Positions 1,737 through 27,902 of a stretch of DNA of 52,738 bases are shown piece by piece. The stretch lies in the IMG/VR virus record IMGVR_UViG_3300029821_000006, positions 1 to 52,738 of that record. One strand, 5' to 3'. A model generated the notes under the pieces. It had not been told where the DNA came from. It saw only the letters and a list, made by a program, of their open reading frames with translations, and made no database searches. Each line of letters begins with the position of its first letter. Position 1 is the stretch's first letter. Origin of the DNA: a virus. Both the position numbers and the translations under genes were made by a program.

Positions 1737-1741
1737 TAACA

Positions 1742-2170: not shown

Positions 2171-2174
2171 CACT

Positions 2175-2197: not shown

Positions 2198-2382
2198 TTG
2201 TCCAAAATCTTTAGTAAAGGAAGTGGTCGATAATCTCCCCTCGCCGGGGTTAAGGTGCGACCTGGATAAGTCGTTAAACGGTCTATTTTTAATACCTAAA
2301 ATTCGGCTACCCTGCAAGCCTACGAAAGCAGGACCATGGGTGACAGCGACCACCTAAAACGCTTAGTGGGAAAGGATAAGAG

Positions 2383-2991: not shown

Positions 2992-3014
2992 ATTAAAATT
3001 TAAGGAGAAAAAAT

Positions 3015-4151: not shown

Positions 4152-4155
4152 GATT

Positions 4156-5712: not shown

Positions 5713-5715
5713 AAC

Positions 5716-6225: not shown

Positions 6226-6238
6226 GGAGGATTAACTA

Positions 6239-6622: not shown

Positions 6623-7212
6623 ATCTACTGACAAAGGCGCTACCACAAACAGTGGCGGTTGATGGGATTGATTATCCAGTCGATACTGATTTTCGGTTGA
6701 TGGTAGAATTTGAAATTATCACAAATGGACCTGGGACAATGGAAGACAAAGGCGAAATGATAATGCCGCTTGTTGACCGTTTTTTTTGTGGCTACATTGG
6801 TTTTGATGTCAATCATGCCATTGAGCGATTCATGTGGTTTTACCGATGTGATGATCAACCCCAAAAATCCTACGAGAACAATGATGAAAAGGATAAAGCG
6901 CCAAGGCCTGTTTATTCATTCGATATTGATGCCCCGTTGATTTACGCGGCATTTATGGACCAATATAGCATTGATTTGGTGTGCATTAAATATTTGCATT
7001 GGTGGGCGTTCCGGTCGCTATTATCAGCATTGCGAGATGACCATGAGTTTAAAAAAATCGTGGGGTATCGGACGATGAAGATCACGAAAGATATGTCGCC
7101 GGAACAAAAGAAAGCTTATCGGGAATTAAAACGGATACACCGACTACCCGATTATCGGTCAGAAGAAGAAAAGGAAAGCGAATTTGCCAACAGCCTGGAC
7201 GCTTTGTTTTAG
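6619..7212 (+). CDS. Phage Gp15-family protein (second tail chaperone position)
   Basis: N-terminus LPQTVAVDGIDYPVDTDFRLMVEFEII resembles the Gp15 family; ATGA overlap with the upstream gene. Confidence 0.6.
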   Translation: MNLLTKALPQTVAVDGIDYPVDTDFRLMVEFEIITNGPGTMEDKGEMIMPLVDRFFCGYIGFDVNHAIERFMWFYRCDDQPQKSYENNDEKDKAPRPVYSFDIDAPLIYAAFMDQYSIDLVCIKYLHWWAFRSLLSALRDDHEFKKIVGYRTMKITKDMSPEQKKAYRELKRIHRLPDYRSEEEKESEFANSLDALF

Positions 7213-10400: not shown

Positions 10401-10632
10401 GAATAATAGCGCTGCAAAAGCAAATCTGAAAGCTTCGATTGAATCAACCTCTGTTACTGTTGGCAATGCTCAAGATAACAATTCCGGGGAGATCCTGGAT
10501 GCACTTAATCGCTTGATTACTGTTGCTGGCACTGGCGGTAATGTATTGATTGATGGAGACAAACTTGTGGGCATAATTGATAAAAAATTCGGCGCAATAG
10601 CCGGGATTAAGGGAAGGGGTGGAGTCATATGA
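7423..10632 (+). CDS. Tape measure protein with C-terminal M23 (LytM-type) peptidase domain
   Basis: 1069 aa; TTG start after AAAGGTGGTGAG; long hydrophobic/helical repeats. M23 motifs HAGIDIG...DHGNGLETLYGHL...GPHLHFGV. Confidence 0.9.
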   Translation: MADGKIIIETGIDTSGIDKGTKSLKSQAASLAAEYRKAGMDQSEAMKKAWSEIDRASSSGSKKLKDDLDDVGKHSDNLSGKLSSMGSIAAKGLTIAASAVAAAGAAMAAAGGYAIKMASDLSEVQNVVDTTFGANTETINKWSKDAGTAFGLSELEAKKYTSTLGAMTKSMGLTDTQTLEMSQGLAGLTGDMSSFYNLDHDEAFDKIRSGISGETEPLKQLGINMSVANLEAYALSQGITTAYDAMSEAEKTTLRYNYLMQVTADAQGDFAKTSGSLANQVRIAQLQVTNLASSVGSALLPMATEAMTKLAGMGQQLNDAFNSGGIDGLVSEIGTVLADLVQMVAEYLPGMVDMGVKVIQSLIDGLITNMPAIMTAAVTVITSLLTGILGMLPSILELGIQMIAQLAIGLAQALPTLIPVAIETILNLITTLLDNIDLIINAGIALIGGLVEGLIAAIPIIIDKLPEIIEKVINAIVKNAPKLIVAGIELIIQMAIGLVKAIPQLIAALPEIIMALVTGLIEAGPALAEAGFTIMLMIQDAFASGWQAISEWFAQLPETIGTFLYNALVSIAKWGLQVQTDMQNAAMNAVNAVGKWFSELPGNIAFALGVAIRNIIDWCIETPQKMQQAADDAITAIGEWFSQLPGNIWNWLTETVANMIQFAVDMGENATTAGNNVFENIVSIIQGLPGALYTLATNMISEIARGIQETASNVYDAVTGLVNDILTKFKEGLGIASPAKELIEIGKYMIQGLINGLNGDSLMAFVNSMIQDLKDKFSSGSFNLKAAIDFIGTGAAEFFKSIGIGGSDFGGLTVPVDGAITSGFGYRDDVGDVGTKDHAGIDIGVPEGTPVGAAGAGTVTQAGWNDGYGNSVTIDHGNGLETLYGHLSEVLVSVGQMVTQLQTIGLSGNTGNSTGPHLHFGVYQDGAAIDPSSLFGLATGTNRVPRTAPYLLHKDEAVIPKKYNPYINGGPAFFAGIAEKMQAAVAEESYKWMNNSAAKANLKASIESTSVTVGNAQDNNSGEILDALNRLITVAGTGGNVLIDGDKLVGIIDKKFGAIAGIKGRGGVI

Positions 10633-11324
10633 GTCGAGCTGACGTGCTTGTCAATACAACGTCTTTGGTAGAATTGTTTAAAATACGTATGTTATCGGTC
10701 AATATTTCGCCACCTAAACCAAAATTGATTCAAATACCGGTTACCGGGACAAGCGATGTTGTCGATATGTCGGAAGCGATCAGCGGCGATATTGAGTATG
10801 ACCAAAGAGAATTAACAGTTGTTTTTGAATATGTTGGAGCGAAAGAAAGCTTTCATGCGATGCATTCAAAAATATTAAATTTTTTACACGGCCGAAAGAT
10901 GCAAATTGTATTTTCGCAGGATTCTGGATTTTATTTCCTTGGCAGGATTTTGGTGGACGATTACAAGTGGGAAGTTTACGGCGGAACGCTGACGCTATCC
11001 GCCACTGTCGACCCGTATAAATACGAAACACAATCATCCATGGAGCCGTGGCTCTGGGATTCGTTCTCATTCGAGGACGGGATTATCAGGGATTATTACG
11101 ATATATCAGTTCCTGGAACCCTAACCATAACAGGACGTCGAAAAAGAGTTTGTCCGAAATTTATTTGCAGTGTAGCAATGACGGTTTCATATCTAGGTAA
11201 TACCTACAATCTGGCAATGGGTGAAAACATTGTACCTGATATTTTTCTGGGCGAAGGTGAACACTTGCTGGCGTTCGGGGGATCCGGTACCGTTGATGTC
11301 GATTATCGGGGGGGGAGCCTATGA
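10629..11324 (+). CDS. Distal tail protein (Dit)
   Basis: 231 aa directly after the tape-measure gene, with overlapping stop/start on both sides. Confidence 0.7.
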   Translation: MSRADVLVNTTSLVELFKIRMLSVNISPPKPKLIQIPVTGTSDVVDMSEAISGDIEYDQRELTVVFEYVGAKESFHAMHSKILNFLHGRKMQIVFSQDSGFYFLGRILVDDYKWEVYGGTLTLSATVDPYKYETQSSMEPWLWDSFSFEDGIIRDYYDISVPGTLTITGRRKRVCPKFICSVAMTVSYLGNTYNLAMGENIVPDIFLGEGEHLLAFGGSGTVDVDYRGGSL

Positions 11325-14300
11325 AAGCCAGCTATAAAACGCACATTGAAAACGAGGGTTGGAACATTGCGGTCGAGGACGGTAAAACGTCTGGGACCAC
11401 TGGCAAAGGATTAAGGCTTGAAGCCCTCATCATCGAATTGTTAGACAAAGGCGGTTTAGATATCGCCATCGAAGCGCAGGCCCACGTACAAAATGTTGGT
11501 TGGCAACCGCTTAAAACCGATGGCGAGATAATCGGGACAGTAGGCGAAAGTCTAAGGCTTGAAGCGGTACGGATTCGGTTAGTCGGAGCCGATGCTAAAA
11601 AATACAAAATTAAATACAGAGTTCACGTCGAGAATATCGGATGGCAAAACTGGAAAGTAGATGGCGAAACTGCCGGAACTGAAAGAGTCGCATTAAGAGC
11701 AGAAGCAATTGAAATCATGCTGGAACGCATCACAGAGGACGTTGTTGTAGTAGTACCTAATACACCCGCAGACGATCCGACACAAATAATTGTACCCCTG
11801 ACAGATCCTAACTCAGCGATACCACCCGAAAAAATCCTGTGTGCAAGTTACGCTACTCACGTTGAAAATTACGGATGGGGTGCAGATGTCACCGATGGCC
11901 GGTTGTCTGGTCGAATTGGTCAGGCGTTGCGATTAGAAGCAATCAGGATTGCATTAATTAATGTTGGAGCGTTAGATTTAGGTGTGGCCTACTCAACCCA
12001 CGTAGAGAATATCGGATGGCAACCCGAAGTTGCAAACGGTCAAACCGCAGGAACAACGGATCAGAGTTTGAGGTTAGAAGCCGTTAAAATGCACCTGACC
12101 GGAACCGATGCGGACAAGTATTCGATCTGGTACCGAGTCCATGTGCAAAACGAAGGATTCCAAGAGTGGTGTCGCGATGGCGATGTTGCCGGAACCGAGG
12201 GGCAATCATTACGAGCCGAAGCGATCCAGATCATTATAACTCTAAAATCCGAAAACATTATCCGGAACCCCGGCGATGCGCCTTTGATAGCGGTCAATTA
12301 CCGTTCACACATTCAAAATCTGGCATGGGCGCAATGGGTAAAGAATGGCGCTAAGTCCGGAACAACTGGTTTAGGACTTCGGATGGAAGCATTAGAAATA
12401 AATCTTTCATCGCTGGATGGCCTAGACATTGGCGTTTCATACCGGGTTCACGTTCAAAATATCGGTTGGCAACCGTGGTTTGCAGATGGTGCAACCTCCG
12501 GGACGGTCGGGCAAAGCCTGAGAATTGAAGCGGTCGAAATTGTTTTGACTGGAACTGATGCGGATAAATACACGGTGCAATATCGTGGACACCTTGAAAA
12601 TTCTGGCTGGACAAGCTGGTGTAAGAACGGCGCAACATTAGGCACAACAGGCGAAGAAATAAGGCTAGAAGCTGTGTCGATTGTACTGATAAAAAACGTA
12701 GACCTGAACGCAGTTGTCACAAACGAAATCAAAAACAAGGCACCAATCGTCCAGATCTGGGCATCTGATTTTCCCCGGGCTGATGTGTTATTGCACGACA
12801 TTCGAACGGACTACCGGCTGTTAAGTGCAAAAACGTCCGAAGGGATTAACAAATCCAGCGGGATGACATTCACGATTGACCCCACGCACCCGCACTATAG
12901 CAAATTGCGAAAAATGCACACGACTATATTGGTGTATGAGATTTATTCAAATACCCGAAAAGACATAATATTTGAGGGGCGGATTCTTAGCGATACCGAA
13001 GATATCTACAAAAAAAGAGTCGTCACCTGTGAGGGAGAATTAGGATATTTACTTGACAGCATCCAACGCCCTGCCCAGTATATCAATGTGACACCGGAAC
13101 AATGGTTGACGCAGGTATTGGATAACCACAATATGCAGGTAACATCCGATAAAAGACTTCATATGGGAATTTGTACAGTTCTGGGTGACGGTAGCGGGGT
13201 TAACATATCCACGAATTACCGAACGCACATCGAAAACCTATCCTGGCTATCATGGGTCAGAAACGGCGACGACAGCGGCACCACCGGTTCGGGATTGCGA
13301 ATGGAGGCGCTGGAACTAACGCTGGAAAATATCGGTAGCATGGATATTGGTGTGACCTACCGGGCACATCTGGCAGATACCGGGTGGCAGGAGTGGGTAG
13401 TTGATGGAGCCACGGCGGGAACGGTTGGATTAGCCGTTGAAATGCAAGCGGTTGAAATCAAACTGACCGGCGCTGATGCTGGATTATTTTCAATCCAATA
13501 CCGGGTTCATGTCGAAAATGAAGGCTGGCAGGATTGGAAACAGGATGGCGAAACCGCCGGGACAACGGGCCAATCACTGAGGGCTGAGTCAATCAGCATT
13601 ATTATTGTCTCGAAGGTCGATGGCACCAACGGAAAATTAAAAGACGGACTATTCCGGGAAAATGAATATGTCAATACGCTGGAATTAATCAAAACAACCA
13701 TGCTGGACACTCTGGGCGGAGTTATAGTGATTGAACGGATCGGCGGGATTAAGTTTCTGAATTACCTGGAAAACTACGGTTCGACAAACTCACAGCCTAT
13801 TAAGTTTGGCGTGAATTTGCTGGATTATTCCAAGATTACAGATGCAAGCGGGATCTATACTGCCCTGGTGCCGTATGGCAAGGAAATCGACGGGAAGAAA
13901 TTAACCATTGCAACAGCAAACAACGACTGTGATTATATTTACGATGAGTTAGCAGTTGCAGAATATGGTTGGATCTTTAAAGAATTTGAGTGGCCGGATA
14001 TCGACAGTCCTTCGGCGTTGATGTATGCGGCGAAATTAAAACTGGCCGGTGGGATTAAGCAGGGAATGTCCCTGGAACTGACCGCCATTGACCTAAGCGA
14101 AGTAAATATTGACATCCAAAAGTTTCAGGTTGGCGATATGGCAAGGAGTGTATCGAAACCGCATGACCTGGACACATTCCTATCAGTGAGTAAAAAAGAA
14201 CGAGATTTACTGAATCGCGGAAATGATCGGATTGTTTTAGGCGGCGTAACCCAATCCCTGACAGATCGGATCTCCGGGCCGCTGGGTGGTGGAATCATGG

Positions 14301-15469
14301 GGTTCGCCTTGACGACGGCCAACAGTGTTAAGAACATGGAGTATGTGGCGAATGAATTATCATTCCTAATCAAAATCACCGCTGAGACAGTAGAAGAACA
14401 AGGAACGACGATCAATGAGACAAAGCTGGAAATGGACGCATTTCATATTAGCTTGTCGGCATTGGAATCAAGGACAACGGCAACGGAGTCGTCTGTTAAT
14501 GAAACGGTGTTAGAAATGACAGCATTCGGGGCTAGTTTAACAGCGACACAAACAACAGTATCAAGTTTGGGAACACAAATAAATCAGGCTGGTTTAGACA
14601 TAAGTGCCTTGAGCGCCGGTCTGTCGGCAACACAGACAAGTTTGGACGGAAAAGTAAGTAAAGCGTCAATCATAGCGAGTATTAATGAAAGTGGGGAAAG
14701 CGGAGTTAAAATCAGCGCTGACAAAGTAAATATTACCGGCGTTGTAACATTTGCAAATCTGGCAACAGCTGGACAAACTGTTATAAATGGCGGGAATATA
14801 TCTGGTGGGACGTTAAATTTTGACAACATTACCGCTACGGGGTCTATTGTTTTAGATTCGTCATCCACATATGCTGGTATGGCATTTAGGCATACTCCTA
14901 GCGGCAAGTTTGGAGGCGTATACGCCAATTATTCGTATGGAGCAGTTTTATATGCTGGTTCTGGAGGCATCCAATTATCAACGACGGGAAGTGATGTAAC
15001 GGTTACTTATAGTTTAAAAGCAAATAATCTTATATATACAGCCACTAGTGGTACAGAGAAGGTATCAGATATTAAGTGGATATCATCAGGAGCATATGTC
15101 CAGGTAGGAACGGTCGCTGGGGCAAAAGGTGTTACGGTTTGGGATTCAGACAGGCGGTTAAAAACAAATATCAAAACCTCAACGTTGAATGCGACTGGTA
15201 AATTATCTATGGTTTCCACACGAGAGTTTAACTGGTTATCTGATTACCGCTTAGAAAAATGTGGTTTTATAGCCCAAGAAATTGAAAAAATATTAGGCAC
15301 AGAGTTTGTCTTAAAAGTAAAACAGGAAGACGGTTCATACAACTATCAGATTAAAGAATATCCATTTATACCATTATTAGTAAAAGCAGTACAAGAACTA
15401 AACGTAAAAGTCATGCGCCTTGAAAATGAGGTCGCGGTATTAAAACATAAAGGAGAACTACCATGTTAG
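11321..15469 (+). CDS. Tail-associated lysin-like / tail fibre protein (Tal) with 12 ChW repeats, coiled coil and C-terminal S74 intramolecular chaperone domain
   Basis: The ChW consensus Y+xHVxNxGWQxW...G..AGTxGxxLRLEAxxIxL recurs 12 times. The prophage-tail-endopeptidase-like core starts at about aa 480. C-terminal DSDRRLKTNI...GFIAQEIEKI is the S74 autoproteolytic motif. Confidence 0.85.
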   Translation: MKASYKTHIENEGWNIAVEDGKTSGTTGKGLRLEALIIELLDKGGLDIAIEAQAHVQNVGWQPLKTDGEIIGTVGESLRLEAVRIRLVGADAKKYKIKYRVHVENIGWQNWKVDGETAGTERVALRAEAIEIMLERITEDVVVVVPNTPADDPTQIIVPLTDPNSAIPPEKILCASYATHVENYGWGADVTDGRLSGRIGQALRLEAIRIALINVGALDLGVAYSTHVENIGWQPEVANGQTAGTTDQSLRLEAVKMHLTGTDADKYSIWYRVHVQNEGFQEWCRDGDVAGTEGQSLRAEAIQIIITLKSENIIRNPGDAPLIAVNYRSHIQNLAWAQWVKNGAKSGTTGLGLRMEALEINLSSLDGLDIGVSYRVHVQNIGWQPWFADGATSGTVGQSLRIEAVEIVLTGTDADKYTVQYRGHLENSGWTSWCKNGATLGTTGEEIRLEAVSIVLIKNVDLNAVVTNEIKNKAPIVQIWASDFPRADVLLHDIRTDYRLLSAKTSEGINKSSGMTFTIDPTHPHYSKLRKMHTTILVYEIYSNTRKDIIFEGRILSDTEDIYKKRVVTCEGELGYLLDSIQRPAQYINVTPEQWLTQVLDNHNMQVTSDKRLHMGICTVLGDGSGVNISTNYRTHIENLSWLSWVRNGDDSGTTGSGLRMEALELTLENIGSMDIGVTYRAHLADTGWQEWVVDGATAGTVGLAVEMQAVEIKLTGADAGLFSIQYRVHVENEGWQDWKQDGETAGTTGQSLRAESISIIIVSKVDGTNGKLKDGLFRENEYVNTLELIKTTMLDTLGGVIVIERIGGIKFLNYLENYGSTNSQPIKFGVNLLDYSKITDASGIYTALVPYGKEIDGKKLTIATANNDCDYIYDELAVAEYGWIFKEFEWPDIDSPSALMYAAKLKLAGGIKQGMSLELTAIDLSEVNIDIQKFQVGDMARSVSKPHDLDTFLSVSKKERDLLNRGNDRIVLGGVTQSLTDRISGPLGGGIMGFALTTANSVKNMEYVANELSFLIKITAETVEEQGTTINETKLEMDAFHISLSALESRTTATESSVNETVLEMTAFGASLTATQTTVSSLGTQINQAGLDISALSAGLSATQTSLDGKVSKASIIASINESGESGVKISADKVNITGVVTFANLATAGQTVINGGNISGGTLNFDNITATGSIVLDSSSTYAGMAFRHTPSGKFGGVYANYSYGAVLYAGSGGIQLSTTGSDVTVTYSLKANNLIYTATSGTEKVSDIKWISSGAYVQVGTVAGAKGVTVWDSDRRLKTNIKTSTLNATGKLSMVSTREFNWLSDYRLEKCGFIAQEIEKILGTEFVLKVKQEDGSYNYQIKEYPFIPLLVKAVQELNVKVMRLENEVAVLKHKGELPC
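11330..12690 (+). repeat. Nine tandem ChW (clostridial hydrophobic W) coding repeats, arranged as three triplets
   Basis: Read in the translation: triplets separated by a short Pro-rich or other linker. Confidence 0.8.
13211..13610 (+). repeat. Fourth ChW triplet inserted inside the Tal core domain
   Basis: NYRTHIENLSWLSW..., YRAHLADTGWQEW..., YRVHVENEGWQDW... Confidence 0.8.
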
Positions 15470-19136: not shown

Positions 19137-20651
19137 ATGCTGCAAATCGAAGGAATTGACGTTTCCCAGCACCAAGGCGATATCCAATGGCCACGCGTAA
19201 AGAATACAAATAAGAAGTTTTCAGGCGTCCGGATTGGATGGGGTGAAGCCAGGAATGCATCGGGCGGGGAGCTTGATGCAAAAGCCCTGGTAAATTTGGA
19301 TGGTTGCATTGCTAATGGTATCTCACCGCTGCCTTTTATATACTCATATGCTCAAACCGCAGATGAAGCAAGGATGGAAGCAAATTTTATTAAAACCATC
19401 TTATCCCGATATCCGCGTTCTACCTTTGCCTATCCAATCGCATTTGATATTGAGGATCAGCAGTATCAGGGAAACATCGATATTAATCCAATCATTGATG
19501 CATTTTGCACAGAAATCCATAATTCCGGGTATAAAGTCATTACTTATACTTCATTAGATTGGTATCAGAATAGAGTTAATGACACAAACAAAGGGAAATG
19601 GTTCACGTGGTTGGCTCAATGGGATGTCGATAAGCCAGAATTTTTACCAAGTATTTGGCAGTATTCAGACAAAGGATCCGTTGACGGGATTAGCGGGAAT
19701 GTTGATTTAGATATCTGCTATCAGGATTATGTCAATATCGATAACCCGTTTCCAACAAAAGCGGTTGAAGTGGTCGTTACTCAGCCATCAAATCCGTCAC
19801 AGGAAATCATTGCGCCAGTGGATCCATTAAGTGTCCAGGTGTTTTCTATTGTTGAAGAGCAAAGAGTTTTAAGACTTTTAAATTATGGAGACATTGAAGC
19901 GGATGGCCAGGCCGGTGATTTGACAAGATCCGCCAGAAATAATGCAAGAAGAGGTTATGGACTAGCTGAAAATGGAGAAGCAGGAATAGAACTGGAACGA
20001 TGTTTAAGAGGACAGCTCATGTCAGTGCAGGCCAGGCTAAATGAATTAGGTTATGTATGTGATATTGATGGTCGCCTTGGAGATGTCGGTACTCAAACAA
20101 CGGATCGAGTATTAAGCTTCCAAAAGGACAGAAGTCTGACAATTGATGGCATTATCGGAACAAACACATTTACGGCGTTGTTCGCGATCACGAATGCACC
20201 GGTCGCAGTAACGGCACCAGTAGTTACTTTACCTGAAGGAATGGCTTCAAAAAATTTTAGTTGGTACGAGTTGGCTTGTGGATGCATTAAGGGAGATCCG
20301 ACAAGCGGTTGCAACGGATATCCCGAAACAAATTATGGACAGATCATAGCGCAGCAGCTAATTGATAAACTGCAGCAGCTCCGGGACTATGTCGGGGCAA
20401 TTGTCATAACATGCGGTATCCGTTGCCCGGAGAACAATGCATTCTGGGGTGGCGTCTGGGATTCACTCCACATGCTGGGGGAAGCCGTAGACTGTTATTG
20501 CCCAGGAATGGATATCATCGAATTTGCGAGGATCGCTTGGCAGGTATTTGGCATTGCGGTTAGAGTATACCCATCACAGGAGTTTGCTCATTTGGAGTTA
20601 TCAGGTCTTGGGGGAGTGTATAACCAGGAAACAGGGAAGTTTATATACTGA
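19137..20651 (+). CDS. Endolysin: GH25 muramidase + PG_binding_1 repeat(s) + M15A (Peptidase_M15_3) peptidase
   Basis: IEGIDVSQHQGDIQW (GH25); LNELGYVCDIDGRLG...IDGIIGTNTFTAL (PG binding); ITCGIRCPENN...SLHMLGEAVD...FAHLE (M15 zinc ligands H/D/H). Confidence 0.9.
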   Translation: MLQIEGIDVSQHQGDIQWPRVKNTNKKFSGVRIGWGEARNASGGELDAKALVNLDGCIANGISPLPFIYSYAQTADEARMEANFIKTILSRYPRSTFAYPIAFDIEDQQYQGNIDINPIIDAFCTEIHNSGYKVITYTSLDWYQNRVNDTNKGKWFTWLAQWDVDKPEFLPSIWQYSDKGSVDGISGNVDLDICYQDYVNIDNPFPTKAVEVVVTQPSNPSQEIIAPVDPLSVQVFSIVEEQRVLRLLNYGDIEADGQAGDLTRSARNNARRGYGLAENGEAGIELERCLRGQLMSVQARLNELGYVCDIDGRLGDVGTQTTDRVLSFQKDRSLTIDGIIGTNTFTALFAITNAPVAVTAPVVTLPEGMASKNFSWYELACGCIKGDPTSGCNGYPETNYGQIIAQQLIDKLQQLRDYVGAIVITCGIRCPENNAFWGGVWDSLHMLGEAVDCYCPGMDIIEFARIAWQVFGIAVRVYPSQEFAHLELSGLGGVYNQETGKFIY

Positions 20652-20843: not shown

Positions 20844-21851
20844 ATGCACGAAAACGAAATTACTATCAAGATTATTGCAGAGGTCACAGACCGGTTCCCA
20901 GAGGTGGATGGAAATGTTTTAAGGGATATTATCGAAAGAGAGCTATACCAGTACGAGATCCAGCCAAAGTCCACGGCCCTGGTGGTTCAGTCGGACATGA
21001 ATGAAATGATTATGCTGTACCTGGCCACAAAGAAGCTGGACGGCCTGAGCGACAAGACCCTTAAAAATTATGCTCTGCATTTAAGACGATTCTCAAATTA
21101 TTTTCAAAAGAACGTGGCTGACATTACGGCCATGGATATCCGGATGTTTCTGGCGGATCTGATTAAGTATAAAAATCTGAAAAACTCGACATTGGAAAAT
21201 GAGAAATCAATTCTCAAGAGCTTCTTTGTTTGGTTGGAAAATGAGGATTATATCGTCAAGAGTCCTACCCGAAAGATCAAGTCGACAAAGGTGGAGAAGC
21301 GGGTTAGGAAATCATTGTCTGCTGAGGAACTGGAATTGATGCGGGATGCCTGCAGCACAAACCGGCAACGGGCGTTACTGGAATTTACCTTCAGTACCGG
21401 TGGCCGGCTGTCAGAAATCACCCAAGTCAATATCCAGGACATCAACTGGCATGAGAGATCAGTGAATATCATCGGAAAAGGGAATAAAGAAAGAACGATC
21501 TTCTTTTCTCCAAAAGCCAAGATTTATTTGCAGAAATATTTCAATGAGCGGAAAACATTCCCGATCGTGGACGATGCGCTGTTCGTATCCCAGAAAAAGC
21601 CGTATGGACGGTTAGGGAATCGAGCTGTAGAAAAAGAGATTGGGAAGATTGCTGTACAGGCCGGATTCGATAAGGTTGTATTTCCGCATTTACTCAGACA
21701 CACATTCGCCACCCTGGGTCATAAGGCGGGAATGCCGCTCAACGTGCTGCAGGAACTGATGGGACATTCAAACCCCGGGACGACTCAGATATATGCGGCA
21801 CTGGATAACGAGAGTGTGAAAGCAGAGTACCGGAAACGGATAATTCAATAA
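20844..21851 (+). CDS. Tyrosine recombinase, XerC/XerD-like
   Basis: Catalytic set visible: TGGRLSE (R), GKGNKER (K), HLLRHTFAT (HxxR), GHSNPGTTQIY (H..Y). Confidence 0.9.
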   Translation: MHENEITIKIIAEVTDRFPEVDGNVLRDIIERELYQYEIQPKSTALVVQSDMNEMIMLYLATKKLDGLSDKTLKNYALHLRRFSNYFQKNVADITAMDIRMFLADLIKYKNLKNSTLENEKSILKSFFVWLENEDYIVKSPTRKIKSTKVEKRVRKSLSAEELELMRDACSTNRQRALLEFTFSTGGRLSEITQVNIQDINWHERSVNIIGKGNKERTIFFSPKAKIYLQKYFNERKTFPIVDDALFVSQKKPYGRLGNRAVEKEIGKIAVQAGFDKVVFPHLLRHTFATLGHKAGMPLNVLQELMGHSNPGTTQIYAALDNESVKAEYRKRIIQ

Positions 21852-21965: not shown

Positions 21966-22102
21966 ATCGCATGTAGTATAATTAAAGAGAATTAAAGCAA
22001 ATGCACTCAATCAGGGGGAATGACAATGTCAACTCCTCTGTTTTGTTTCTGACATTATCTCACAATGTTGGTTCATTTGATAATGCGATAGGGGGCTTTA
22101 AA

Positions 22103-22624
22103 ATGAGAAAATCATCAATAGACATAAATGGGCTAAAACTCGACGAATTTAAAAAAATTGAATTAGGAATCAGTAAAATAACTCGATATTTTTTATGCAA
22201 ACAATCAATGTCTCAAAAGAAATTGCAAAAACTTGCTTATTATTCTGTTGCTTGGCATTATGCGCTTTTTGATAAACCGTTTGCTGGAGTTGATTTACCT
22301 TTTGAAGCGTGGGTGCACGGTCCGGTATCAAGAAATTTATACAGCAAATACAAAGGTTTTAAATTTAATAATATACCTAAGATAAAAACAGAACCTGATT
22401 TCAGTAAATATAAAAATGATGAGCTTGAGATATTGGATTTTGTTTGGGAAAATTATGGAGAATTTACAGCAAATCAACTTGAAACTTTAACGCATACCGA
22501 AGACCCTTGGCAGAAGAAAAGAAGGGGTTATGGGGAGCTGGAATCATCGTCTGAAGTAATAGGGGTTGAGGATATGAAAAAATATTATAGGAAATTCATT
22601 AAGAACGATGGCGAAATCAACTGA
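22103..22624 (+). CDS. Panacea-domain (DUF4065, SocA/GepA-like) antitoxin-like protein
   Basis: KLQKLAYYSVAWHYALFDKPF...FEAWVHGPVSRNLYSKY. ATG 22103 follows GGGGG. The track start 22001 has no RBS. Confidence 0.75.
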   Translation: MRKSSIDINGLKLDEFKKIELGISKITRYFLCKQSMSQKKLQKLAYYSVAWHYALFDKPFAGVDLPFEAWVHGPVSRNLYSKYKGFKFNNIPKIKTEPDFSKYKNDELEILDFVWENYGEFTANQLETLTHTEDPWQKKRRGYGELESSSEVIGVEDMKKYYRKFIKNDGEIN

Positions 22625-22952
22625 CTCGATCAATATTACAGCGGCAACAGAATTTATTGACGAAATATCGTTTAGTTTAAAACACTTAAATTTTGGGAAT
22701 TGGGGCCTCGATAAACTTAAAAGTCATAGAAATGAGAAAGACTTTAATAACTTTTTAAGAAGATATTCCGGAAAGTCTGTGAAATATTTTCAAAGCACGG
22801 TTCAACCATGCAAAGACGACAAGCAGGATACTTTTGAAGGGCAGCATGTCCACCATTACAAAATCAATGAGAAGTTTAGAATACATGGGTTTTTCCTTGG
22901 CAATAGATTTAAAATAATTCGCATTGATCCTAACCATGAGTTTCATAAATAA
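22608..22952 (+). CDS. Unclassified 114-aa basic/His-rich protein, putative toxin partner
   Basis: 17-nt overlap with the upstream gene. C-terminus HVHHYKINEKFRIHGFFLGNRFKIIRIDPNHEFHK. No family recognised. Confidence 0.65.
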   Translation: MAKSTDSINITAATEFIDEISFSLKHLNFGNWGLDKLKSHRNEKDFNNFLRRYSGKSVKYFQSTVQPCKDDKQDTFEGQHVHHYKINEKFRIHGFFLGNRFKIIRIDPNHEFHK

Positions 22953-23056: not shown

Positions 23057-23305
23057 ATGAAAGTATTAAAAAAATTTGTCTCAGTTGTGGCAAAATTTGA
23101 TGAAGACGGCATAACCCCGTTGCGTGTTATCTGGCCAGATGGCCGGAGTTTTGAAATTGATCGAGTTATTGACGTCCGACCCGGCGCATCAATACCGGCT
23201 GGTGGGCTCGGGATAAAGTATACTTGTAAGATCGCAGGCAGGGAACGGCTGTTATTTTATGAAGAACCAAGGTGGTTTGTGGAAGCGAAAAGCCCAGGTG
23301 TTTAG
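23057..23305 (+). CDS. Conserved small hypothetical protein (82 aa)
   Basis: GAGGTGG RBS; ...PLRVIWPDGRSFEIDRVIDVRPGAS...KYTCKIAGRERLLFYEEPRWFVE. Confidence 0.65.
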   Translation: MKVLKKFVSVVAKFDEDGITPLRVIWPDGRSFEIDRVIDVRPGASIPAGGLGIKYTCKIAGRERLLFYEEPRWFVEAKSPGV

Positions 23306-23317
23306 CCTGGGCTTTTT
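23288..23317. terminator. Bidirectional terminator shared by convergent genes
   Basis: AAAGCCCAGG-tgtttag-CCTGGGCTTT, with A/T runs on both sides. Confidence 0.75.
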
Positions 23318-23325: not shown

Positions 23326-23484
23326 TTAGATATCTTGATAGGCTTTTAAATATTCCATAATCCGACATAGATCATCAACCCGGCTAGAATCCTGTTCAGA
23401 CAACCATAATACAGTTCCAACTTCCGAGGGGCTTAATTCCATCGACCCAATAACTGCAGTTATTTTTGATAGGTTTTCTTCCAT
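23326..23484 (-). CDS. Small helical hypothetical protein (52 aa)
   Basis: AAGGAG 7 nt upstream of ATG on the minus strand; MEENLSKITAVIGSMELSPSEVGTVLWLSEQDSSRVDDLCRIMEYLKAYQDI. Confidence 0.45.
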   Translation of the reverse strand: MEENLSKITAVIGSMELSPSEVGTVLWLSEQDSSRVDDLCRIMEYLKAYQDI

Positions 23485-23588: not shown

Positions 23589-23618
23589 TTGAATTTTATT
23601 CATCAATAGGCGTATAAT
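23589..23618 (+). promoter_or_regulatory. Sigma-A-type promoter for the LRR-ChW gene
   Basis: TTGAAT, 18 nt, TATAAT. Confidence 0.6.
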
Positions 23619-23656
23619 CGTTATCATAAGATATAAATGTGAAGGAGGATGAAATT

Positions 23657-24997
23657 GTGAGGGAAAGTATTCGAAAATGTTTTTATATGTTGGCGGTATT
23701 GTCTATACTGTTTGGGATAGCATCGCCTGGTGTTATGGCCTATCATACCGATAATAATTTTACATATGAAATTGTTGGTGGCGGTGTTTCTGTTACTGAA
23801 TACTCTGGCTACAGTAAAGATGTAGTGATCCCAGATATATTGGGCGGGAGAAAAGTTATAGCTATTGGCGATTCAGCGTTTTCATATCGCGATGATTTAA
23901 CAAGCATTGTGATGCCTGACAGTATAGTTTCTATTGGCGAGGAAGCTTTTTTAAAGTGTCGCAGATTAACAGAATTAAAAATACCTGAAGGAGTAACATT
24001 TATTGATGAATGTGCGTTTGATCATTGCGACAAATTGACCAGCATTACACTTCCGGAAGGTATAACGTCTATTAGTTCTTATACATTTACGCAGTGTAGC
24101 GGGCTAACTAGCATCACAATCCCCAATGGCGTTACTTCCATTGAGTGGGCCGCTTTTTCATACTGCACGGGGCTGAATAGTATAATAATCCCGGAGAGCG
24201 TTACTTCTATTAGCGGTCTTGTATTTAAGGAACACAATGAAAGTTTTGTTATTTATGGTCTTGACGGCTCTTATGCAGAAACTTATGCAAATGAACAAGG
24301 TATACAGTTTTCGGTTATTAAAGATGACCAAATAGCCAAAGCAGTGCATGATCAAATCAATATACTACCGGCTGTGGGTAGCATAAAATTGACCGATAAA
24401 GTGGCTGTAACCGAAGCGCGAACAGCCTATAATAAATTAACGGCCGTGCAAAAAACTTTAGTTAATAACCTAGATATATTGAAAGAATTGGAAAAAAGAA
24501 TTGCTGATCTGGAAGCAGGTGAAAATACTCAAGGACCAATCATTTCCTATCAGACCCACGTTCAAAATATTGGCTGGCAAGAAGATGTCCTACAGGGGGG
24601 AATGTCTGGAACAGAAGGCATGGGATATAGACTTGAAAGTATCCGCATCAGTTTTGAAGATGATGCTAATTTCGATTTAGGCGTGTCTTATTCCACCCAC
24701 GTAGAGAACATCGGATGGCAATCAGAAGTTGCGAACGGCCGAACAGCGGGTACGACCGATCAGGGGTTAAGACTGGAAGCAATTAAAATCAGGCTGACTG
24801 GGGCTGATTCTGATAAATTCGACATCTACTATCAAGTCCATGCGCAAAATTTCGGGTGGCTGGATTGGGCCAAGAATGGAGATAACGCCGGAACTGCAGG
24901 CTTTGGTTTTCGATTGGAAGCAATCAGAATCTCGATTGTACCAAAAGGAGATCCGGCGCCAGGTGCAACATCGAGACCTTTTGTTCAAATGCAATAA
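23657..24997 (+). CDS. Secreted cell-surface protein: signal peptide + BspA-type leucine-rich repeats + three ChW repeats
   Basis: GTG 23657 lies 8 nt after GGAGG. Signal peptide CFYMLAVLSILFGIASPGVMA. LRR units ...LTSITIPNGVTSI... C-terminal ChW units YQTHVQNIGWQ / YSTHVENIGWQ / YQVHAQNFGWLDW. Confidence 0.8.
   Translation: MRESIRKCFYMLAVLSILFGIASPGVMAYHTDNNFTYEIVGGGVSVTEYSGYSKDVVIPDILGGRKVIAIGDSAFSYRDDLTSIVMPDSIVSIGEEAFLKCRRLTELKIPEGVTFIDECAFDHCDKLTSITLPEGITSISSYTFTQCSGLTSITIPNGVTSIEWAAFSYCTGLNSIIIPESVTSISGLVFKEHNESFVIYGLDGSYAETYANEQGIQFSVIKDDQIAKAVHDQINILPAVGSIKLTDKVAVTEARTAYNKLTAVQKTLVNNLDILKELEKRIADLEAGENTQGPIISYQTHVQNIGWQEDVLQGGMSGTEGMGYRLESIRISFEDDANFDLGVSYSTHVENIGWQSEVANGRTAGTTDQGLRLEAIKIRLTGADSDKFDIYYQVHAQNFGWLDWAKNGDNAGTAGFGFRLEAIRISIVPKGDPAPGATSRPFVQMQ
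24541..24940 (+). repeat. ChW triplet of the accessory surface protein
   Basis: The middle unit is near-identical at protein level, and in part at DNA level (acccacgtagagaaYatcggatggcaa), to Tal unit 5 at about 11990-12130. Confidence 0.8.
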
Positions 24998-25039: not shown

Positions 25040-25077
25040 TTAACCAGTCCCGTGGTTTTACGCTCGGGGCTGGTTAA
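25040..25077. other. Imperfect 12-nt inverted repeat (TTAACCAGTCCC / GGGGCTGGTTAA, 14-nt spacer): attP candidate or T-less terminator
   Basis: Read directly. 11 of 12 positions are complementary. No T-run follows. Confidence 0.35.
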
Positions 25078-25214
25078 TAATTGACTGATTCATTAACGAA
25101 AATACGCCATATAAGCACAGGTTTTCGATAAAGCGCCCATATTTGCGTTTTAACCAGTTTTAGCTCGCACAGGTAATAAGTGACCTGTAAAAACCATATA
25201 TTAAGTCATTTTCG

Positions 25215-25340: not shown

Positions 25341-25369
25341 AAAAGAAAAGGCTCGGGGAAACCCGAGCC
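25341..25369 (-). terminator. Terminator of the immA-int operon
   Basis: GGCTCGGG-gaaa-CCCGAGCC, with a T-run on the minus strand. Confidence 0.75.
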
Positions 25370-25524
25370 ATAATTATTGAAACAGTTAACTGTCTATGAT
25401 TTATTTTTAGAAGGGATTATCCATCGCCGTTATACCATGTAAACATAAAATGCAAAGTCATGTGTTTTATGCGATACCACTGGGATTCGTGCGCTAAAAT
25501 TAAAATTTCGAAAAATCAGCAATT

Positions 25525-27444
25525 TCAAGATTTTTGTCCCTTGATGTAGTAACTTACCACTTTGCTGTTTTCTCTCTGTACTGGAACGATCTCACCTTGG
25601 TCAACCATTGCATGTAGTGTCTGGTAAACTGCATGGCTGGGATGACCAGTAGCGCGAATGAAATCAACGCCCTTCAATTTTCCATGTTCCCCGATAAAAC
25701 TTAATATCTTTTCTTTGCTCTCATATTGGCATATTTCGGCGCTCGTTGGCATTTTATTAGCACCCGGTTCCCATTCGAATTGGCTTACGAGTCCGTTAGT
25801 AAATGTTATTTCGACGGGCAGACCATTTTTAATAACAATTTTGCTGATTAAAGCATCTATTATTTGGCGCAAATTGCCAGTTCCGGAAGTTTTAACTAAA
25901 TAGTCATAATTAAAAGGTTGTCCTTTTGACATAACTGTCTTTTCGAATAAAACCATCCCCGCTTTAAATGACAAGTTGTCGAATTTTGCGGTTCCATCAA
26001 TCGTTTTGAGCTCATCTATTTGTGCTCCTTTTAGCTCCGTTATTTTTCTGTCGAGATCATTCTTCTTCAACATAAAATCTTTTCCGCTCATCGATTCAGG
26101 CGAGAACAAATAAAGTTCTTCCAGGCGCAAAATAGCAGTTTCATATTTTTTCAATTCATTCTCGATTTTATTCGACCTTTTCAGGGCGGGATCGTTGTTT
26201 CCACTTTTCGTTTTGTGCTTGATTTTAGGTTTCCCTTGATCTAAAAGCTGCCCAATTATGCGGTCGATCGTGCCACTTGAGATTGACTTGAGACGCATGA
26301 ATGGCCATCCGTCGGTTAATAAATTTTCTATTGTGCCGGATCTCATACTTGGCTTAATCAACTCAGATAGCCTACGAACGTTAGATAGATAGTTAAACAC
26401 AATCGGAACTAACAGGCCATCTCCAATGCACCCCTTGCACGAATTTATGCTGCCATAGCCGGAACAAGAGTAGGTCGCCGGACGTAAGCCGTTTGATTTT
26501 TTCCTCGCTCCTGTGCTGGCATTGTACGGCCTTAAGCAGTCTCCGCAAATCAATTTTCTCGAGAAAATGTTTATCTGAGCGTTTTCTCGATGGTATTGGC
26601 TATCGCCGTTTCGATTTGATTTAAGGAGATTCTGGACTCGGCTAAATTGTTCTTCGTCAATGATGGCGGGATGGCTATTTTCTATAACAATCCAGTCGTT
26701 CTCTTTTTTCATTTTTCTTGAAGTGTAGTCCCGATAATTGTATCGGTATGTCCCTTTATAAAAAGGGTTTTTTAGCATGCTAACAATTGTGCTATGATCC
26801 CATTCGCCGCCACGCTTTGTTTTTATACCTTTATCCGCGAGGCTGGTCGCGACATCATTGGACGACTTGGTTTCTTCATATAGGTTAAAGATGTATCTTA
26901 CGATTTCGGCTTCATGTTCGTCAATTACCGGGAATTTACATTTACTTTCGATTAGATATCCCATCGGCGGTTGGGCGCCATTATAAAGCCCTTTTGAAGC
27001 TCTATCGATCATCACGGATAATACTCTTTCAGCAGTCATCTTCCTTTCAAGTTCTGCAAAAATTAAAGTGATCCGCAGCATCGCTTCGCCCATGGGGGAA
27101 CTGGTATCAAATTGTTCATTCTTGGATATAAAAGCGGTATCATACTTTTTTATTTCCTCATACATTTCACAAAAGTCAATTAGGTTTCGACTGATCCGGT
27201 CAAGCTTCCAGACCAGAATATGAGAAAACTCACGGTTTCGGACCCGGGTCATCATTTCCTGGTATTTAGGTCGGTCTGTGTTTTTGGCAGAGAACCCGGC
27301 ATCTTCAAAGATCTCATAGTCATCGATGTTCAGAGCGTACCTGGCATAGTTTACCAGATCATCGCGCTGCAGGGGAAGACTGTCTTTGTCTGCCTGCATG
27401 GCCGTAGAGACCCGGATGTAGAGTGCTGCTTTTTTATTGGACAT
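25525..27444 (-). CDS. Large serine recombinase (phage integrase)
   Basis: AALYIRVSTAMQ...LPLQ catalytic Ser motif, recombinase domain, Cys cluster CGDCLRPY...CSGYGSINSCKGC, coiled coil. ATG 27444 follows GAAGGTG. Confidence 0.9.
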   Translation of the reverse strand: MSNKKAALYIRVSTAMQADKDSLPLQRDDLVNYARYALNIDDYEIFEDAGFSAKNTDRPKYQEMMTRVRNREFSHILVWKLDRISRNLIDFCEMYEEIKKYDTAFISKNEQFDTSSPMGEAMLRITLIFAELERKMTAERVLSVMIDRASKGLYNGAQPPMGYLIESKCKFPVIDEHEAEIVRYIFNLYEETKSSNDVATSLADKGIKTKRGGEWDHSTIVSMLKNPFYKGTYRYNYRDYTSRKMKKENDWIVIENSHPAIIDEEQFSRVQNLLKSNRNGDSQYHRENAQINIFSRKLICGDCLRPYNASTGARKKSNGLRPATYSCSGYGSINSCKGCIGDGLLVPIVFNYLSNVRRLSELIKPSMRSGTIENLLTDGWPFMRLKSISSGTIDRIIGQLLDQGKPKIKHKTKSGNNDPALKRSNKIENELKKYETAILRLEELYLFSPESMSGKDFMLKKNDLDRKITELKGAQIDELKTIDGTAKFDNLSFKAGMVLFEKTVMSKGQPFNYDYLVKTSGTGNLRQIIDALISKIVIKNGLPVEITFTNGLVSQFEWEPGANKMPTSAEICQYESKEKILSFIGEHGKLKGVDFIRATGHPSHAVYQTLHAMVDQGEIVPVQRENSKVVSYYIKGQKS

Positions 27445-27458
27445 GAGAACACCTTCTT

Positions 27459-27902
27459 TTACTGGTATTGGTAATGGCCGCACAGCTTCGCGCGGTTAAG
27501 CACTTGCTCTACTGGCATGCCATATTTTTCCGCTAAATCCCACTCATTCAATCGTTTTATATCTTTCTCAAATAAGTATGGGGGCATGGTGAAATAGAGT
27601 GCAAAAGCGTCCGCTGAGGCTTCGTGCTTTCCAGGGGTATCGATTGTGGTCTTTTGTCGCCCGTGGGAAACAATATGGCCAAGCTCATGCGCCAAGGCAA
27701 ATCTTTGATCTGAGATTGTTTCAAAACGTGGCAAAATAAGCTCATTTCTAAAAATGCATGGCCTATTGATCTCTGAGCAATTTATAAGGGAATAGCCTTT
27801 ATCGGTAATGATTTCTTCGATGTCGTGAATTGGGACCGGCAGTGTCAAAATAGGATATTTGTTTAGTGTTTTGATTACATGTTTCTGTGTCATTTTATAC
27901 AA
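27459..27902 (-). CDS. immA: ImmA/IrrE-family metallopeptidase (start uncertain: TTG 27902, ATG 27893 or TTG 27923)
   Basis: HEXXH motif ALAHELGHIVSH. GGAGG lies 7 nt before TTG 27902. Followed 14 nt downstream by the integrase gene. Confidence 0.8.
   Translation of the reverse strand: MYKMTQKHVIKTLNKYPILTLPVPIHDIEEIITDKGYSLINCSEINRPCIFRNELILPRFETISDQRFALAHELGHIVSHGRQKTTIDTPGKHEASADAFALYFTMPPYLFEKDIKRLNEWDLAEKYGMPVEQVLNRAKLCGHYQYQ

What the first reader, a model, noticed from the sequence alone, without database searches (positions are those of the whole stretch)
23657..24997. Prophage-encoded secreted LRR protein carries the same ChW wall-binding triplet as the phage tail tip: possible receptor masking or lysogenic conversion
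Seen: this is an autonomous unit (promoter TTGAAT-18-TATAAT, GGAGG RBS, signal peptide, BspA-type LRRs) ending in three ChW repeats. Its middle repeat (DLGVSYSTHVENIGWQSEVANGRTAGTTDQGLRLEAIKIRLTGADSDKF) is almost identical to Tal repeat 5 (DLGVAYSTHVENIGWQPEVANGQTAGTTDQSLRLEAVKMHLTGTDADKY). The two also share DNA stretches such as acccacgtagagaaYatcggatggcaa. Established: ChW repeats are cell-surface or cell-wall-associated modules of Clostridia. Inference: the lysogen may decorate its wall with a protein that occupies the ligand recognised by the virion's ChW modules, which would be an exclusion-by-decoy mechanism. Alternatively the LRR part may act as an adhesin (lysogenic conversion). The shared sequence also offers a substrate for tail/host-protein domain shuffling.
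Basis: partly seen in the sequence, partly recalled or inferred. Interest (0 to 1): 0.62.

Follow-up and report, generated by a model that had tools for sequence, protein, structure and literature searches.

The report
Phage cargo gene: wall-anchored LRR protein
A temperate phage of the acetogen Acetobacterium carries an optional, self-contained gene for a secreted leucine-rich-repeat protein. Its cell-wall anchor is mostly host-like but holds a 28-residue patch of the type found in the phage's tail tip, so it is most likely a surface-remodelling cargo gene, and a receptor decoy is unproven.

Summary
The described features are real. Gene 23657-24997 has its own promoter-like site and RBS, a signal peptide, BspA-type LRRs and three ChW repeats. 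The Tal (11321-15469) has twelve ChW repeats.

"Same triplet" and "almost identical" overstate the likeness:
- Only a 28-aa patch of the middle repeat is tail-like: 84% to Tal unit 5, 48% to host units.
- The rest of repeat 2 and repeat 3 are host-like (75%). Repeat 1 matches neither.
- Unit 5 is the best match in more than 30 Tal orthologues (71-90%). About 280 ChW units in three Acetobacterium genomes reach at most 69%.

New finding: the patch is an island of deep DNA divergence among otherwise near-identical orthologues (64-91% against 91-100%; dS about 1.4 against 0.2-0.3). Tal and cargo alleles intermix in a tree, but no pair exceeds 83% DNA identity and own-genome pairs are no closer.

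The gene is optional. It is present in 4 related phages, absent from 4, and also found outside phages. In an integrated relative it is the last prophage gene.

The host already makes about 30 ChW proteins, which argues against masking. Best reading: a lysogenic-conversion surface protein. The decoy idea is untested.

The parts
23287..23317 (+). Terminator-like hairpin with a T-run that ends the upstream 82-aa ORF and insulates the cassette on its 5' side
   Evidence: 13-bp stem followed by a T-run. Homology with the non-phage copy L019 begins here.
23589..23618 (+). Sigma-70-like promoter TTGAAT-18-TATAAT
   Evidence: matches 10 of 12 positions. This is a consensus match only. Homology with the copy in degraded provirus G2 starts at about 23563.
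23644..23648 (+). GGAGG ribosome-binding site, 8 nt upstream of the GTG start
   Evidence: Read directly from the sequence.
23657..24997 (+). Cargo gene for a 446-aa secreted LRR-ChW protein
23657..23740 (+). Sec-type signal peptide, residues 1-28, with predicted cleavage VMA|YH
   Evidence: Sequence inspection. The AXA-type site is conserved in 7 orthologues. AF2 gives a helix at residues 3-21 followed by a low-confidence stretch.
23741..24322 (+). BspA-type LRR domain, residues 29-222. Its N-terminal half occurs as two deeply diverged allelic types.
   Evidence: Pfam LRR_5, E 5.8e-37. PDB sequence matches 4gt6, 6mlx and 4cp6. Foldseek E 6.6e-11 to 1e-6. The stretch 23742-23975 is only 50-70% nt identical to orthologues.
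24323..24535 (+). Helical spacer, present in 446-448-aa forms and absent from 382-383-aa forms
   Evidence: Alignment. AF2 predicts helices with pLDDT below 50. No Pfam match.
24536..24676 (+). ChW unit 1, private to this gene family and 91-100% nt identical among most orthologues
24677..24817 (+). ChW unit 2, the middle unit
   Evidence: 67.8 bits.
24683..24781 (+). Tail-type patch and island of divergence. The 28-aa patch VSYSTHVENIGWQSEVANGRTAGTTDQG (24683-24766) is 84% identical to Tal unit 5 and 48% to host units. The nt divergence island was measured at 24686-24781.
   Evidence: Against the closest relative, 28 of 78 nt differences fall in 24677-24796 (binomial P = 6e-11).
24818..24994 (+). 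ChW unit 3 and C-terminal tail, host-like (75-85% to C-terminal units of Acetobacterium surface proteins)
25042..25075 (+). 11-bp hairpin without a T-run; 3' limit of the cassette
   Evidence: Read from the sequence. Homology with L019 ends at about 25074-25095.
25350..25369 (.). Bidirectional terminator-like hairpin just before the putative attP
   Evidence: Homology with integrated relative L017 ends at about 25379, after which L017 continues with host genes.
11321..15469 (+). Tal (tail-tip protein) with twelve ChW units in four triplets, a Prophage_tail core and an S74 chaperone
11837..12259 (+). Tal ChW triplet 2 (units 4-6). Unit 5 carries the patch shared with the cargo gene (about 11984-12067).

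Best explanation
Gene 23657-24997 is an optional, self-contained cargo cassette ('moron') of a temperate Acetobacterium siphophage. It sits next to attP, so in the lysogen it is the outermost prophage gene.

Proposed working:
- It is transcribed from its own promoter.
- The product is exported by the Sec pathway and cleaved after VMA.
- The protein is held non-covalently on the cell wall by its C-terminal ChW triplet and displays a BspA-type LRR domain outward.
- The LRR domain is the working part. Its most likely role is a surface binder or adhesin that changes how the lysogen sticks to cells, surfaces or partners (lysogenic conversion). The ChW triplet is the anchor.

The likeness to the tail tip comes from a chimeric anchor. 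A host-type ChW triplet carries a 28-aa patch of the subtype found in unit 5 of the Tal in this phage lineage. The patch is old. Its alleles are as diverged as the Tal genes themselves and occur in types shared by both genes, while the flanking anchor DNA has been spread recently by recombination.

Shown here: the architecture, the optional and mobile nature of the cassette, the host, the chimeric make-up and the divergence island. Inferred: export, wall binding, expression in the lysogen and the adhesin role.
For: Architecture:
- Pfam LRR_5 plus three ChW repeats.
- The LRR is close to the solved cell-surface LRR proteins 4gt6, TpLRR and PcpA.
- AF2 is confident for both domains.

Cargo nature:
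- The gene lies inside a complete DTR phage genome.
- It is flanked by terminator-like hairpins and has its own promoter-like site.
- Homology breakpoints match the limits of the unit.
- It is present in G0, G1, L017 and L090.
- It is absent from the complete relative G006 and from L091, L092 and G007.
- It also lies next to IS and Mob genes outside a tail module.
- In integrated relative L017 it is the last gene before the host genes.

ChW as the host's wall anchor:
- All genome hits are Acetobacterium or Eubacteriaceae.
- There are 90-97 ChW units per genome.
- Relatives' endolysins use ChW as their binding domain.
- ChW binding domains display proteins on cells and bind the wall (PMC6700490, PMC10610939).

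Chimeric anchor: the patch is 84% identical to Tal unit 5 and 48% to host units, while the rest of unit 2 plus unit 3 is 75% to host and 54% to Tal. The tree agrees.

LRR as the effector: an intact LRR is kept in all 9 alleles, with deeply diverged allelic types in its N-terminal half.
Against: - There is no expression, localisation or binding data.
- The promoter and terminators are consensus matches only.
- No ligand is known for ChW in any organism (PMC5817068), and the ChW triplet model has no structural relative in the PDB.
- An adhesin role rests on analogy alone (BspA, PcpA, TpLRR).
- This reading does not explain why a tail-type patch sits in the anchor, or why that patch is the most diverged part of the gene.
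Confidence: 0.55

Rival explanations
1. Receptor masking. The secreted protein occupies, through its tail-type ChW unit, the wall ligand that the Tal ChW modules of this or related phages need. This would block superinfection of the lysogen, or loss of progeny virions on cell debris.
For: - The cargo gene and Tal unit 5 share a ChW subtype that about 280 host units lack: at most 69% against 71-90%.
- The shared patch is the hotspot of allelic divergence, with variable loop residues at the same positions in both genes, as expected for a contested binding site.
- Patch allele types cross the gene boundary.
- Precedent, from my own knowledge and not checked in a paper here: phage T5 Llp masks FhuA.
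Against: - The host already displays about 30 ChW proteins, so the ligand is probably an abundant wall polymer that one more protein can hardly saturate.
- Only 28 aa of one unit in three are tail-like.
- Patch types match within a genome in only 1 of 3 cases: G0 is A/A, G1 has Tal B with cargo A, and L090 has Tal A with cargo B.
- The gene is optional and also occurs without any ChW-bearing Tal nearby.
- A masking role would not need an intact, diversifying LRR domain.
- The phage has a separate fibre gene (16044-18338) that may be the main receptor binder. In S. thermophilus phages the Tal carbohydrate-binding modules bind more weakly than the receptor-binding protein (PMC7533335).
Confidence: 0.15
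2. Phage exclusion through the displayed LRR domain, in the manner of CwpV. The wall-anchored protein interferes with incoming phages after adsorption, for example at tail-tip opening or DNA entry. The ChW triplet would be only the anchor.
For: - C. difficile CwpV, a wall-anchored protein with variable repeat domains, blocks siphophage infection without affecting adsorption (PMC4737114).
- The N-terminal half of the LRR occurs as deeply diverged allelic types, as in an arms race.
Against: - There is no homology to CwpV or to any known Sie protein.
- PHROGs gives only families of unknown function.
- PADLOC was not searched.
- dN/dS of the LRR is about 0.2, which is purifying overall.
Confidence: 0.12
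3. Neutral hitch-hiker. A host-derived surface-protein cassette that moves between mobile elements, with no phage-related role. Its likeness to the Tal would be a relic of one old recombination between two ChW-bearing genes in the same genome.
For: - The cassette is found in IS- and Mob-rich contexts and on short non-phage contigs.
- LRR_5 plus ChW is a common host architecture, with dozens of hits.
- No nt identity above 83% links any L2 and T05 pair.
Against: - The cassette is kept intact, with strong purifying selection on the anchor (dN/dS about 0.1), in at least 9 diverged alleles.
- It recurs in the same slot of four diverged phages.
- The island of divergence at the patch needs some form of selection or repeated exchange.
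Confidence: 0.13

Closest known systems
PcpA of Streptococcus pneumoniae (PDB 4cp6) and similar non-covalently anchored LRR surface proteins such as InlB of Listeria
   Same: Signal peptide, N-terminal LRR domain and C-terminal tandem wall-binding repeats that hold the protein on the wall without a covalent link. The LRR domains match by sequence (E 4e-11) and by fold (E 1e-6).
   Different: The anchor is ChW, not choline-binding (PcpA) or GW (InlB) repeats. The gene is carried by a phage of an environmental acetogen. The InlB comparison rests on my own knowledge.
BspA-type LRR cell-surface proteins (Pfam LRR_5; F. prausnitzii 4gt6, T. pallidum TpLRR 6mlx)
   Same: Member by Pfam score (126.9 bits against a cut-off of 27.7). 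31% identity and a Foldseek E of 6.6e-11 to 4gt6.
   Different: Shorter, with about 6 repeats. It is fused to a ChW triplet, with an optional helical spacer.
Carbohydrate-binding modules of 'evolved' Tal and Dit proteins of siphophages that infect Gram-positive bacteria (PMC6669499, PMC7533335, PMC7291167)
   Same: The Tal here is decorated with extra wall-binding modules, twelve ChW units. The cargo gene's patch is of the subtype of one of them.
   Different: The modules are ChW, a fold with no PDB relative, not the BppA-type or other carbohydrate-binding modules described in those papers. A searched paper describing a paralogous module on a secreted lysogen protein was not found.
ChW cell-wall binding domains of endolysins (lactococcal phage AM12, Lacticaseibacillus phage CL1; PMC6700490, PMC10610939)
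   Same: The same repeat family, shown in those papers to display fused proteins on cells. Relatives of this phage use ChW in their endolysins.
   Different: Here the passenger is an LRR binder, not a lytic enzyme. This phage's own endolysin has no ChW.
Receptor-masking and surface-protein exclusion systems (T5 Llp; C. difficile CwpV, PMC4737114)
   Same: A surface-located protein made by the protected cell. CwpV is wall-anchored by repeats and has variable effector domains.
   Different: No homology. No evidence here for any effect on phage infection.

Membership tests
ChW repeat proteins (Pfam PF07538) | Repeats of about 47 aa with a conserved GW, scoring above the Pfam cut-off | tested here: met
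   Three units score 50-68 bits each against a cut-off of 22.
ChW repeat proteins (Pfam PF07538) | Units organised in triplets with position-specific subtypes | tested here: met
   The period is 47 aa. In a tree of 139 units, the units group by position within the triplet. AF2 folds the triplet as one confident module, pTM 0.86.
ChW repeat proteins (Pfam PF07538) | Binding to the cell wall or cell surface | not testable with these tools
   Supported only by context: relatives' endolysins use ChW as a binding domain and by the literature (PMC6700490, PMC10610939). The ligand is unknown (PMC5817068).
BspA-type LRR (Pfam LRR_5, PF13306) | Profile match above the cut-off and the LRR solenoid fold | tested here: met
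   126.9 bits against 27.7. Foldseek gives 4gt6 at E 6.6e-11 and TpLRR at E 1.6e-10. pLDDT is above 90.
Phage moron or lysogenic-conversion cassette | Own promoter and terminator, separate from the phage operons | tested here: inconclusive
   Consensus promoter, flanking hairpins and homology breakpoints at the limits of the unit.
Phage moron or lysogenic-conversion cassette | Present in some and absent from other closely related phages, in a variable slot | tested here: met
   Present in G0, G1, L017 and L090. Absent from G006 (complete genome), L091, L092 and G007.
Phage moron or lysogenic-conversion cassette | Base composition differs from the rest of the phage | tested here: not met
   GC is 0.37-0.43 in the gene against 0.40-0.45 around it. 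This feature is not obligatory for the class.
Sec-exported protein | N-terminal n-h-c signal peptide with an AXA-type cleavage site and no lipobox | tested here: met
   By inspection only: MRESIRK, then a 15-residue hydrophobic core, then VMA|Y. The pattern is conserved in 7 orthologues. No predictor was available.
Receptor-masking or superinfection-exclusion protein | Binds or blocks the receptor of the excluded phage and lowers adsorption or entry | not testable with these tools
   Needs adsorption, plating-efficiency and competition assays.
Receptor-masking or superinfection-exclusion protein | Binding module matched to the tail module of the same phage (co-variation) | tested here: not met
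   Own-genome patch identity is 77%, 69% and 75% nt against 61-83% for foreign pairs. Allele types match in 1 of 3 genomes. The sample is small.
DGR variable region (considered for the divergent patch) | Variation confined to template adenines, with an RT and template repeat nearby | tested here: not met
   Many invariant adenines, and substitutions of all kinds, mostly synonymous. The window has no RT. Relatives have a DGR, but it sits next to a DUF6273 gene, the likely target.

The most novel reading that the evidence does not exclude
The 28-aa tail-type patch in the anchor is a specificity cassette shared and exchanged between the virion's tail tip and a protein that the lysogen puts on its own wall. 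The lysogen would thereby compete for the very wall site the tail tip uses. That would be receptor masking by a paralogue of the phage's own adhesion module. The deep, allele-rich divergence of the patch would be the trace of an arms race between related phages.
Probability: 0.15. Interest if true: 0.75.

Novelty: new variant of a known kind. Interest (0 to 1): 0.45.

Why it matters
Phage cargo genes for surface proteins are a known way for prophages to change their hosts, but almost nothing is known for acetogens such as Acetobacterium, which are used in gas fermentation and electrosynthesis.

Three points are of wider use:
- ChW is shown to be the general wall anchor of this genus and is used by its phages in three roles: tail tip, endolysin and cargo protein. 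The ChW ligand has never been identified. A phage-specific subtype with a sharply bounded variable patch points to the residues to test.
- The patch is a clean natural example of an island of ancient alleles inside recently spread DNA, shared between a virion gene and a lysogen gene.
- If the decoy reading were true, it would be a new form of superinfection exclusion in Gram-positive bacteria.

Tried and rejected
1. Recent gene conversion between the cargo gene and its own Tal is rejected.
   - Patch nt identity to the own Tal is 77% (window), 69% (G1) and 75% (L090), no higher than for foreign pairs (61-83%).
   - The 26-of-27 nt run matches at 7 of 8 synonymous sites against about 4 of 8 for the others. 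I estimate P of about 0.035 before multiple testing, so the evidence is weak.
2. A DGR as the cause of the divergent patch is rejected.
3. Monophyly of the cargo patches against the Tal patches is undecided. The best tree intermixes them, and no bootstrap tree separates them, but the AU test does not reject monophyly (p = 0.18).
4. The fold search of the ChW triplet model (pLDDT 91) against the PDB found nothing (best E 0.55), so it gives no lead to the ligand. The PDB sequence search also found no ChW structure.
5. The large ChW proteins of A. paludosum and A. bakii (1457 and 1410 aa) looked like Tal genes of related prophages. They are host surface proteins that share only the ChW units.
6. 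GC content does not set the cassette apart.
8. The phage GenBank collection holds no close relative of this region.
9. Literature searches found no paper on ChW in tail proteins or on LRR-ChW cargo genes.
Full report
WHAT THE WINDOW IS

The 52,738-bp window is a whole IMG/VR virus record with a 127-bp direct terminal repeat, rated complete. It is a temperate siphophage. The gene order is:
- tape measure, 7423-10632
- Dit, 10629-11324
- Tal, 11321-15469
- a fibre-like 764-aa protein, 16044-18338
- holin
- an endolysin without ChW, 19137-20651
- a tyrosine recombinase, 20844-21851
- a Panacea toxin-antitoxin pair, 22001-22952
- an 82-aa ORF
- the gene in question, 23657-24997
- a large serine recombinase on the minus strand, 25525-27483

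The host is Acetobacterium. Every genome hit of the protein lies in Acetobacterium or Eubacteriaceae, and named Tal homologues come from A. wieringae and A. carbinolicum.

THE OBSERVATION

All the listed features are present:
- the promoter-like site at 23589-23618, matching 10 of 12 positions
- GGAGG 8 nt before the GTG start
- a plausible Sec signal peptide, cleaved VMA|Y
- Pfam LRR_5 (E 5.8e-37)
- three ChW units in this gene, and twelve in the Tal

Among the 105 pairs of the 15 units, cargo unit 2 against Tal unit 5 is the clear outlier. It reaches 80% aa and 75% nt identity, while all other pairs lie at 29-66% aa. The quoted DNA stretch is real, with 26 of 27 bases identical.

'Almost identical' and 'the same triplet' are too strong. 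Units 1 and 3 are only 46% and 49% identical to Tal units 4 and 6. The whole triplet is 59% identical to Tal triplet 2, no closer than to chromosomal ChW triplets of Acetobacterium (55-65%).

THE ANCHOR IS A CHIMERA

I split the triplet into three segments and compared each with five Tal triplet-2 sequences and eleven host triplets.

| Segment | Identity to Tal triplet 2 | Identity to host triplets |
|---|---|---|
| Unit 1 plus linker | 45% | 45% |
| 28-aa patch VSYSTHVENIGWQSEVANGRTAGTTDQG | 84% (71-89) | 48% (39-61) |
| Rest of unit 2 plus unit 3 | 54% | 75% (68-82) |

A tree of 139 units agrees:
- Units group by their position in the triplet.
- Cargo unit 2 falls with Tal unit 5, with weak to moderate support (84/14, and 98/76 one node up).
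- Unit 3 falls among the C-terminal units of host proteins (98/84).
- Unit 1 forms its own clade (96/99).

The link to the Tal is specific and general:
- In each of more than 30 Tal orthologues with twelve units, unit 5 is the best match to cargo unit 2, at 71-90%.
- In five related phage records, Tal triplet 2 matches the cargo triplet at 57-60%, against 42-48% for their other ChW triplets, Tal or endolysin.
- Among roughly 280 ChW units of three Acetobacterium genomes, the best match reaches 69%.

So the patch is a phage-lineage subtype shared by the tail tip and the cargo gene.

AN ISLAND OF DIVERGENCE

Nine alleles of the cargo gene were compared: the window, L063, L088, L019, G1, G2, L017, L050 and L023.

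| Segment | nt identity among alleles |
|---|---|
| Unit 1 | mostly 91-100% |
| Patch (window 24686-24781) | 64-91% |
| Rest of the anchor | mostly 89-98% |

The only exception in the patch is one near-clonal pair at 98%.

Median dS is 0.18 for unit 1, 1.42 for unit 2, 0.30 for unit 3 and 0.53 for the LRR. dN/dS is 0.05-0.12 throughout the anchor.

Even against the closest relative (94% aa identity), 28 of 78 nt differences fall in 120 nt. The binomial P is 6e-11.

The Tal genes show no such island. Their patch (65-86%) is as diverged as its flanks (68-79%).

The patch of the cargo gene is thus as old as the phage lineage, while its flanks are recent. Relationships also differ between flank and patch. 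L019 is the outlier in unit 1 but close to L017 in the patch. That means recombination has occurred.

The patch is not a DGR variable region. Many adenines are invariant, and substitutions are of all kinds.

EXCHANGE WITH THE TAL?

A DNA tree of the patch intermixes 9 cargo and 14 Tal sequences. At least 4 changes of label are needed, and no bootstrap tree separates the two genes. Two allele types, 'NG(Q/R)T' and 'NGAT', each contain both genes and share synonymous states, for example GCC ACG GCT. This points to more than one transfer of the patch between the two genes.

The case is not closed:
- The AU test does not reject a single origin (p = 0.18).
- No cargo-Tal pair exceeds 83% nt identity.
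- The three own-genome pairs (77%, 69%, 75%) are no closer than foreign ones.
- Allele types match in only one of three genomes.

So there is no recent or within-genome homogenisation.

THE GENE IS OPTIONAL, MOBILE CARGO

- It occupies the same slot, after the lysis genes and the tyrosine recombinase, in G1, L017 and the window. In L090 it follows the endolysin directly.
- It is absent from a complete 53.7-kb relative (G006). It is also absent from L091 and L092, whose slots hold other genes, and from G007.
- It also lies next to a Y-family polymerase, Mob_Pre and IS21 genes in a provirus truncated after Dit (G2), and next to a DDE transposase (L019).
- Homology between these copies starts at the promoter or the upstream terminator and ends at the stop codon or the downstream hairpin.
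- In the integrated relative L017, homology to the window ends at about 25379. L017 then continues with a truncated Mg-chelatase/ComM-like gene and other host genes. attP therefore lies just past the gene, and in a lysogen the gene is the outermost prophage gene.

WHAT IT MOST LIKELY DOES

The architecture is signal peptide, LRR, then wall-binding repeats. That is the architecture of non-covalently anchored surface binders such as pneumococcal PcpA. Its LRR is a detectable relative, as are a Faecalibacterium cell-surface protein (4gt6) and TpLRR.

ChW is the wall anchor of choice in this host. There are 90-97 units per genome, or about 30 proteins. Related phages use it as the binding domain of their endolysins. 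ChW binding domains have been shown to hold fused proteins on cells (PMC6700490, PMC10610939), although the ligand is unknown (PMC5817068).

I therefore read the gene as a lysogenic-conversion surface protein, with the LRR as the working part and the ChW triplet as the anchor.

THE DECOY IDEA

Points against masking:
- The abundance of host ChW proteins.
- The small share of tail-like sequence in the anchor.
- The gene's optional presence.
- Its occurrence without a ChW-bearing Tal.
- The lack of allele matching within genomes.
- The retained, diversifying LRR.

Points for it:
- A tail-type patch that host proteins lack.
- That patch is the allelic hotspot.

The idea stays open at about 15%. 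A CwpV-like exclusion through the LRR (PMC4737114) is a further rival.

LIMITS

- The confident ChW triplet model (pLDDT 91, pTM 0.86) has no relative in the PDB, so it gives no hint of the ligand.
- Model coordinates could not be read, so the variable residues could not be mapped.
- Only three genomes hold both genes.

Noticed in passing
window 24323-24535: A 63-64-aa helical spacer between the LRR and ChW domains is present in the window, L063, L088 and L019 (446-448 aa forms). It is cleanly absent from G1, G2, L017, L023 and L050 (382-383 aa forms). It has no Pfam match and low AF2 confidence.
   Followed up: partly
window 23742-23975 and 23657-23740: The first LRR repeats and the signal peptide each occur as two deeply diverged allelic types, 50-70% nt for the LRR part. 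These types assort independently of the ChW segments, so the gene is a mosaic of at least five segments.
   Followed up: partly
window 19137-20651, compared with L017, L090, L091, L092 and L093: The endolysin here is GH25 + PG_binding_1 + Peptidase_M15_3, without ChW. Relatives have ChW + M15_3 or ChW + Amidase_3. This is a swap of both the binding and the catalytic modules within one phage lineage.
   Followed up: no
L090 16572-19308; L093 17881-20610; L091 about 17136; L092 about 16921: Relatives carry a diversity-generating retroelement between the fibre gene and the lysis genes. L090 and L093 have bAvd, a reverse transcriptase and a DUF6273 gene, the likely target. L091 and L092 show the reverse transcriptase only. 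The window has none in this position.
   Followed up: no
window 23057-23305 (+) and 23326-23484 (-): An 82-aa ORF and a convergent 52-aa ORF, neither with a family match, travel with the cargo gene in the phage copies (76% aa identity in G1 and L017; also in L063 and L088). They are missing from the non-phage copies G2 and L019.
   Followed up: partly
L017 11524-12210 and window about 25380-25525: The related prophage appears to be inserted in a Mg-chelatase/ComM-like gene. Only 228 aa of that gene remain next to the junction. This places attP between the cargo gene and the serine recombinase gene.
   Followed up: partly
L088 (Ga0074199_1001185), reverse strand 1-7131: A copy of the island (tyrosine recombinase, 82-aa ORF, LRR-ChW at 87% nt) lies only 2 kb from a homologue of window gene 62-1270, with no tail or lysis module between them. 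It is either a rearranged or satellite-like element, or a degraded prophage.
   Followed up: no
window 24536-24676: ChW unit 1 is 91-100% nt identical (dS 0.00-0.30) among phages whose Tal and integrase genes are only 77-86% identical. The reason for this extreme DNA conservation is open: a recent sweep, or a constraint at the nucleotide level.
   Followed up: partly
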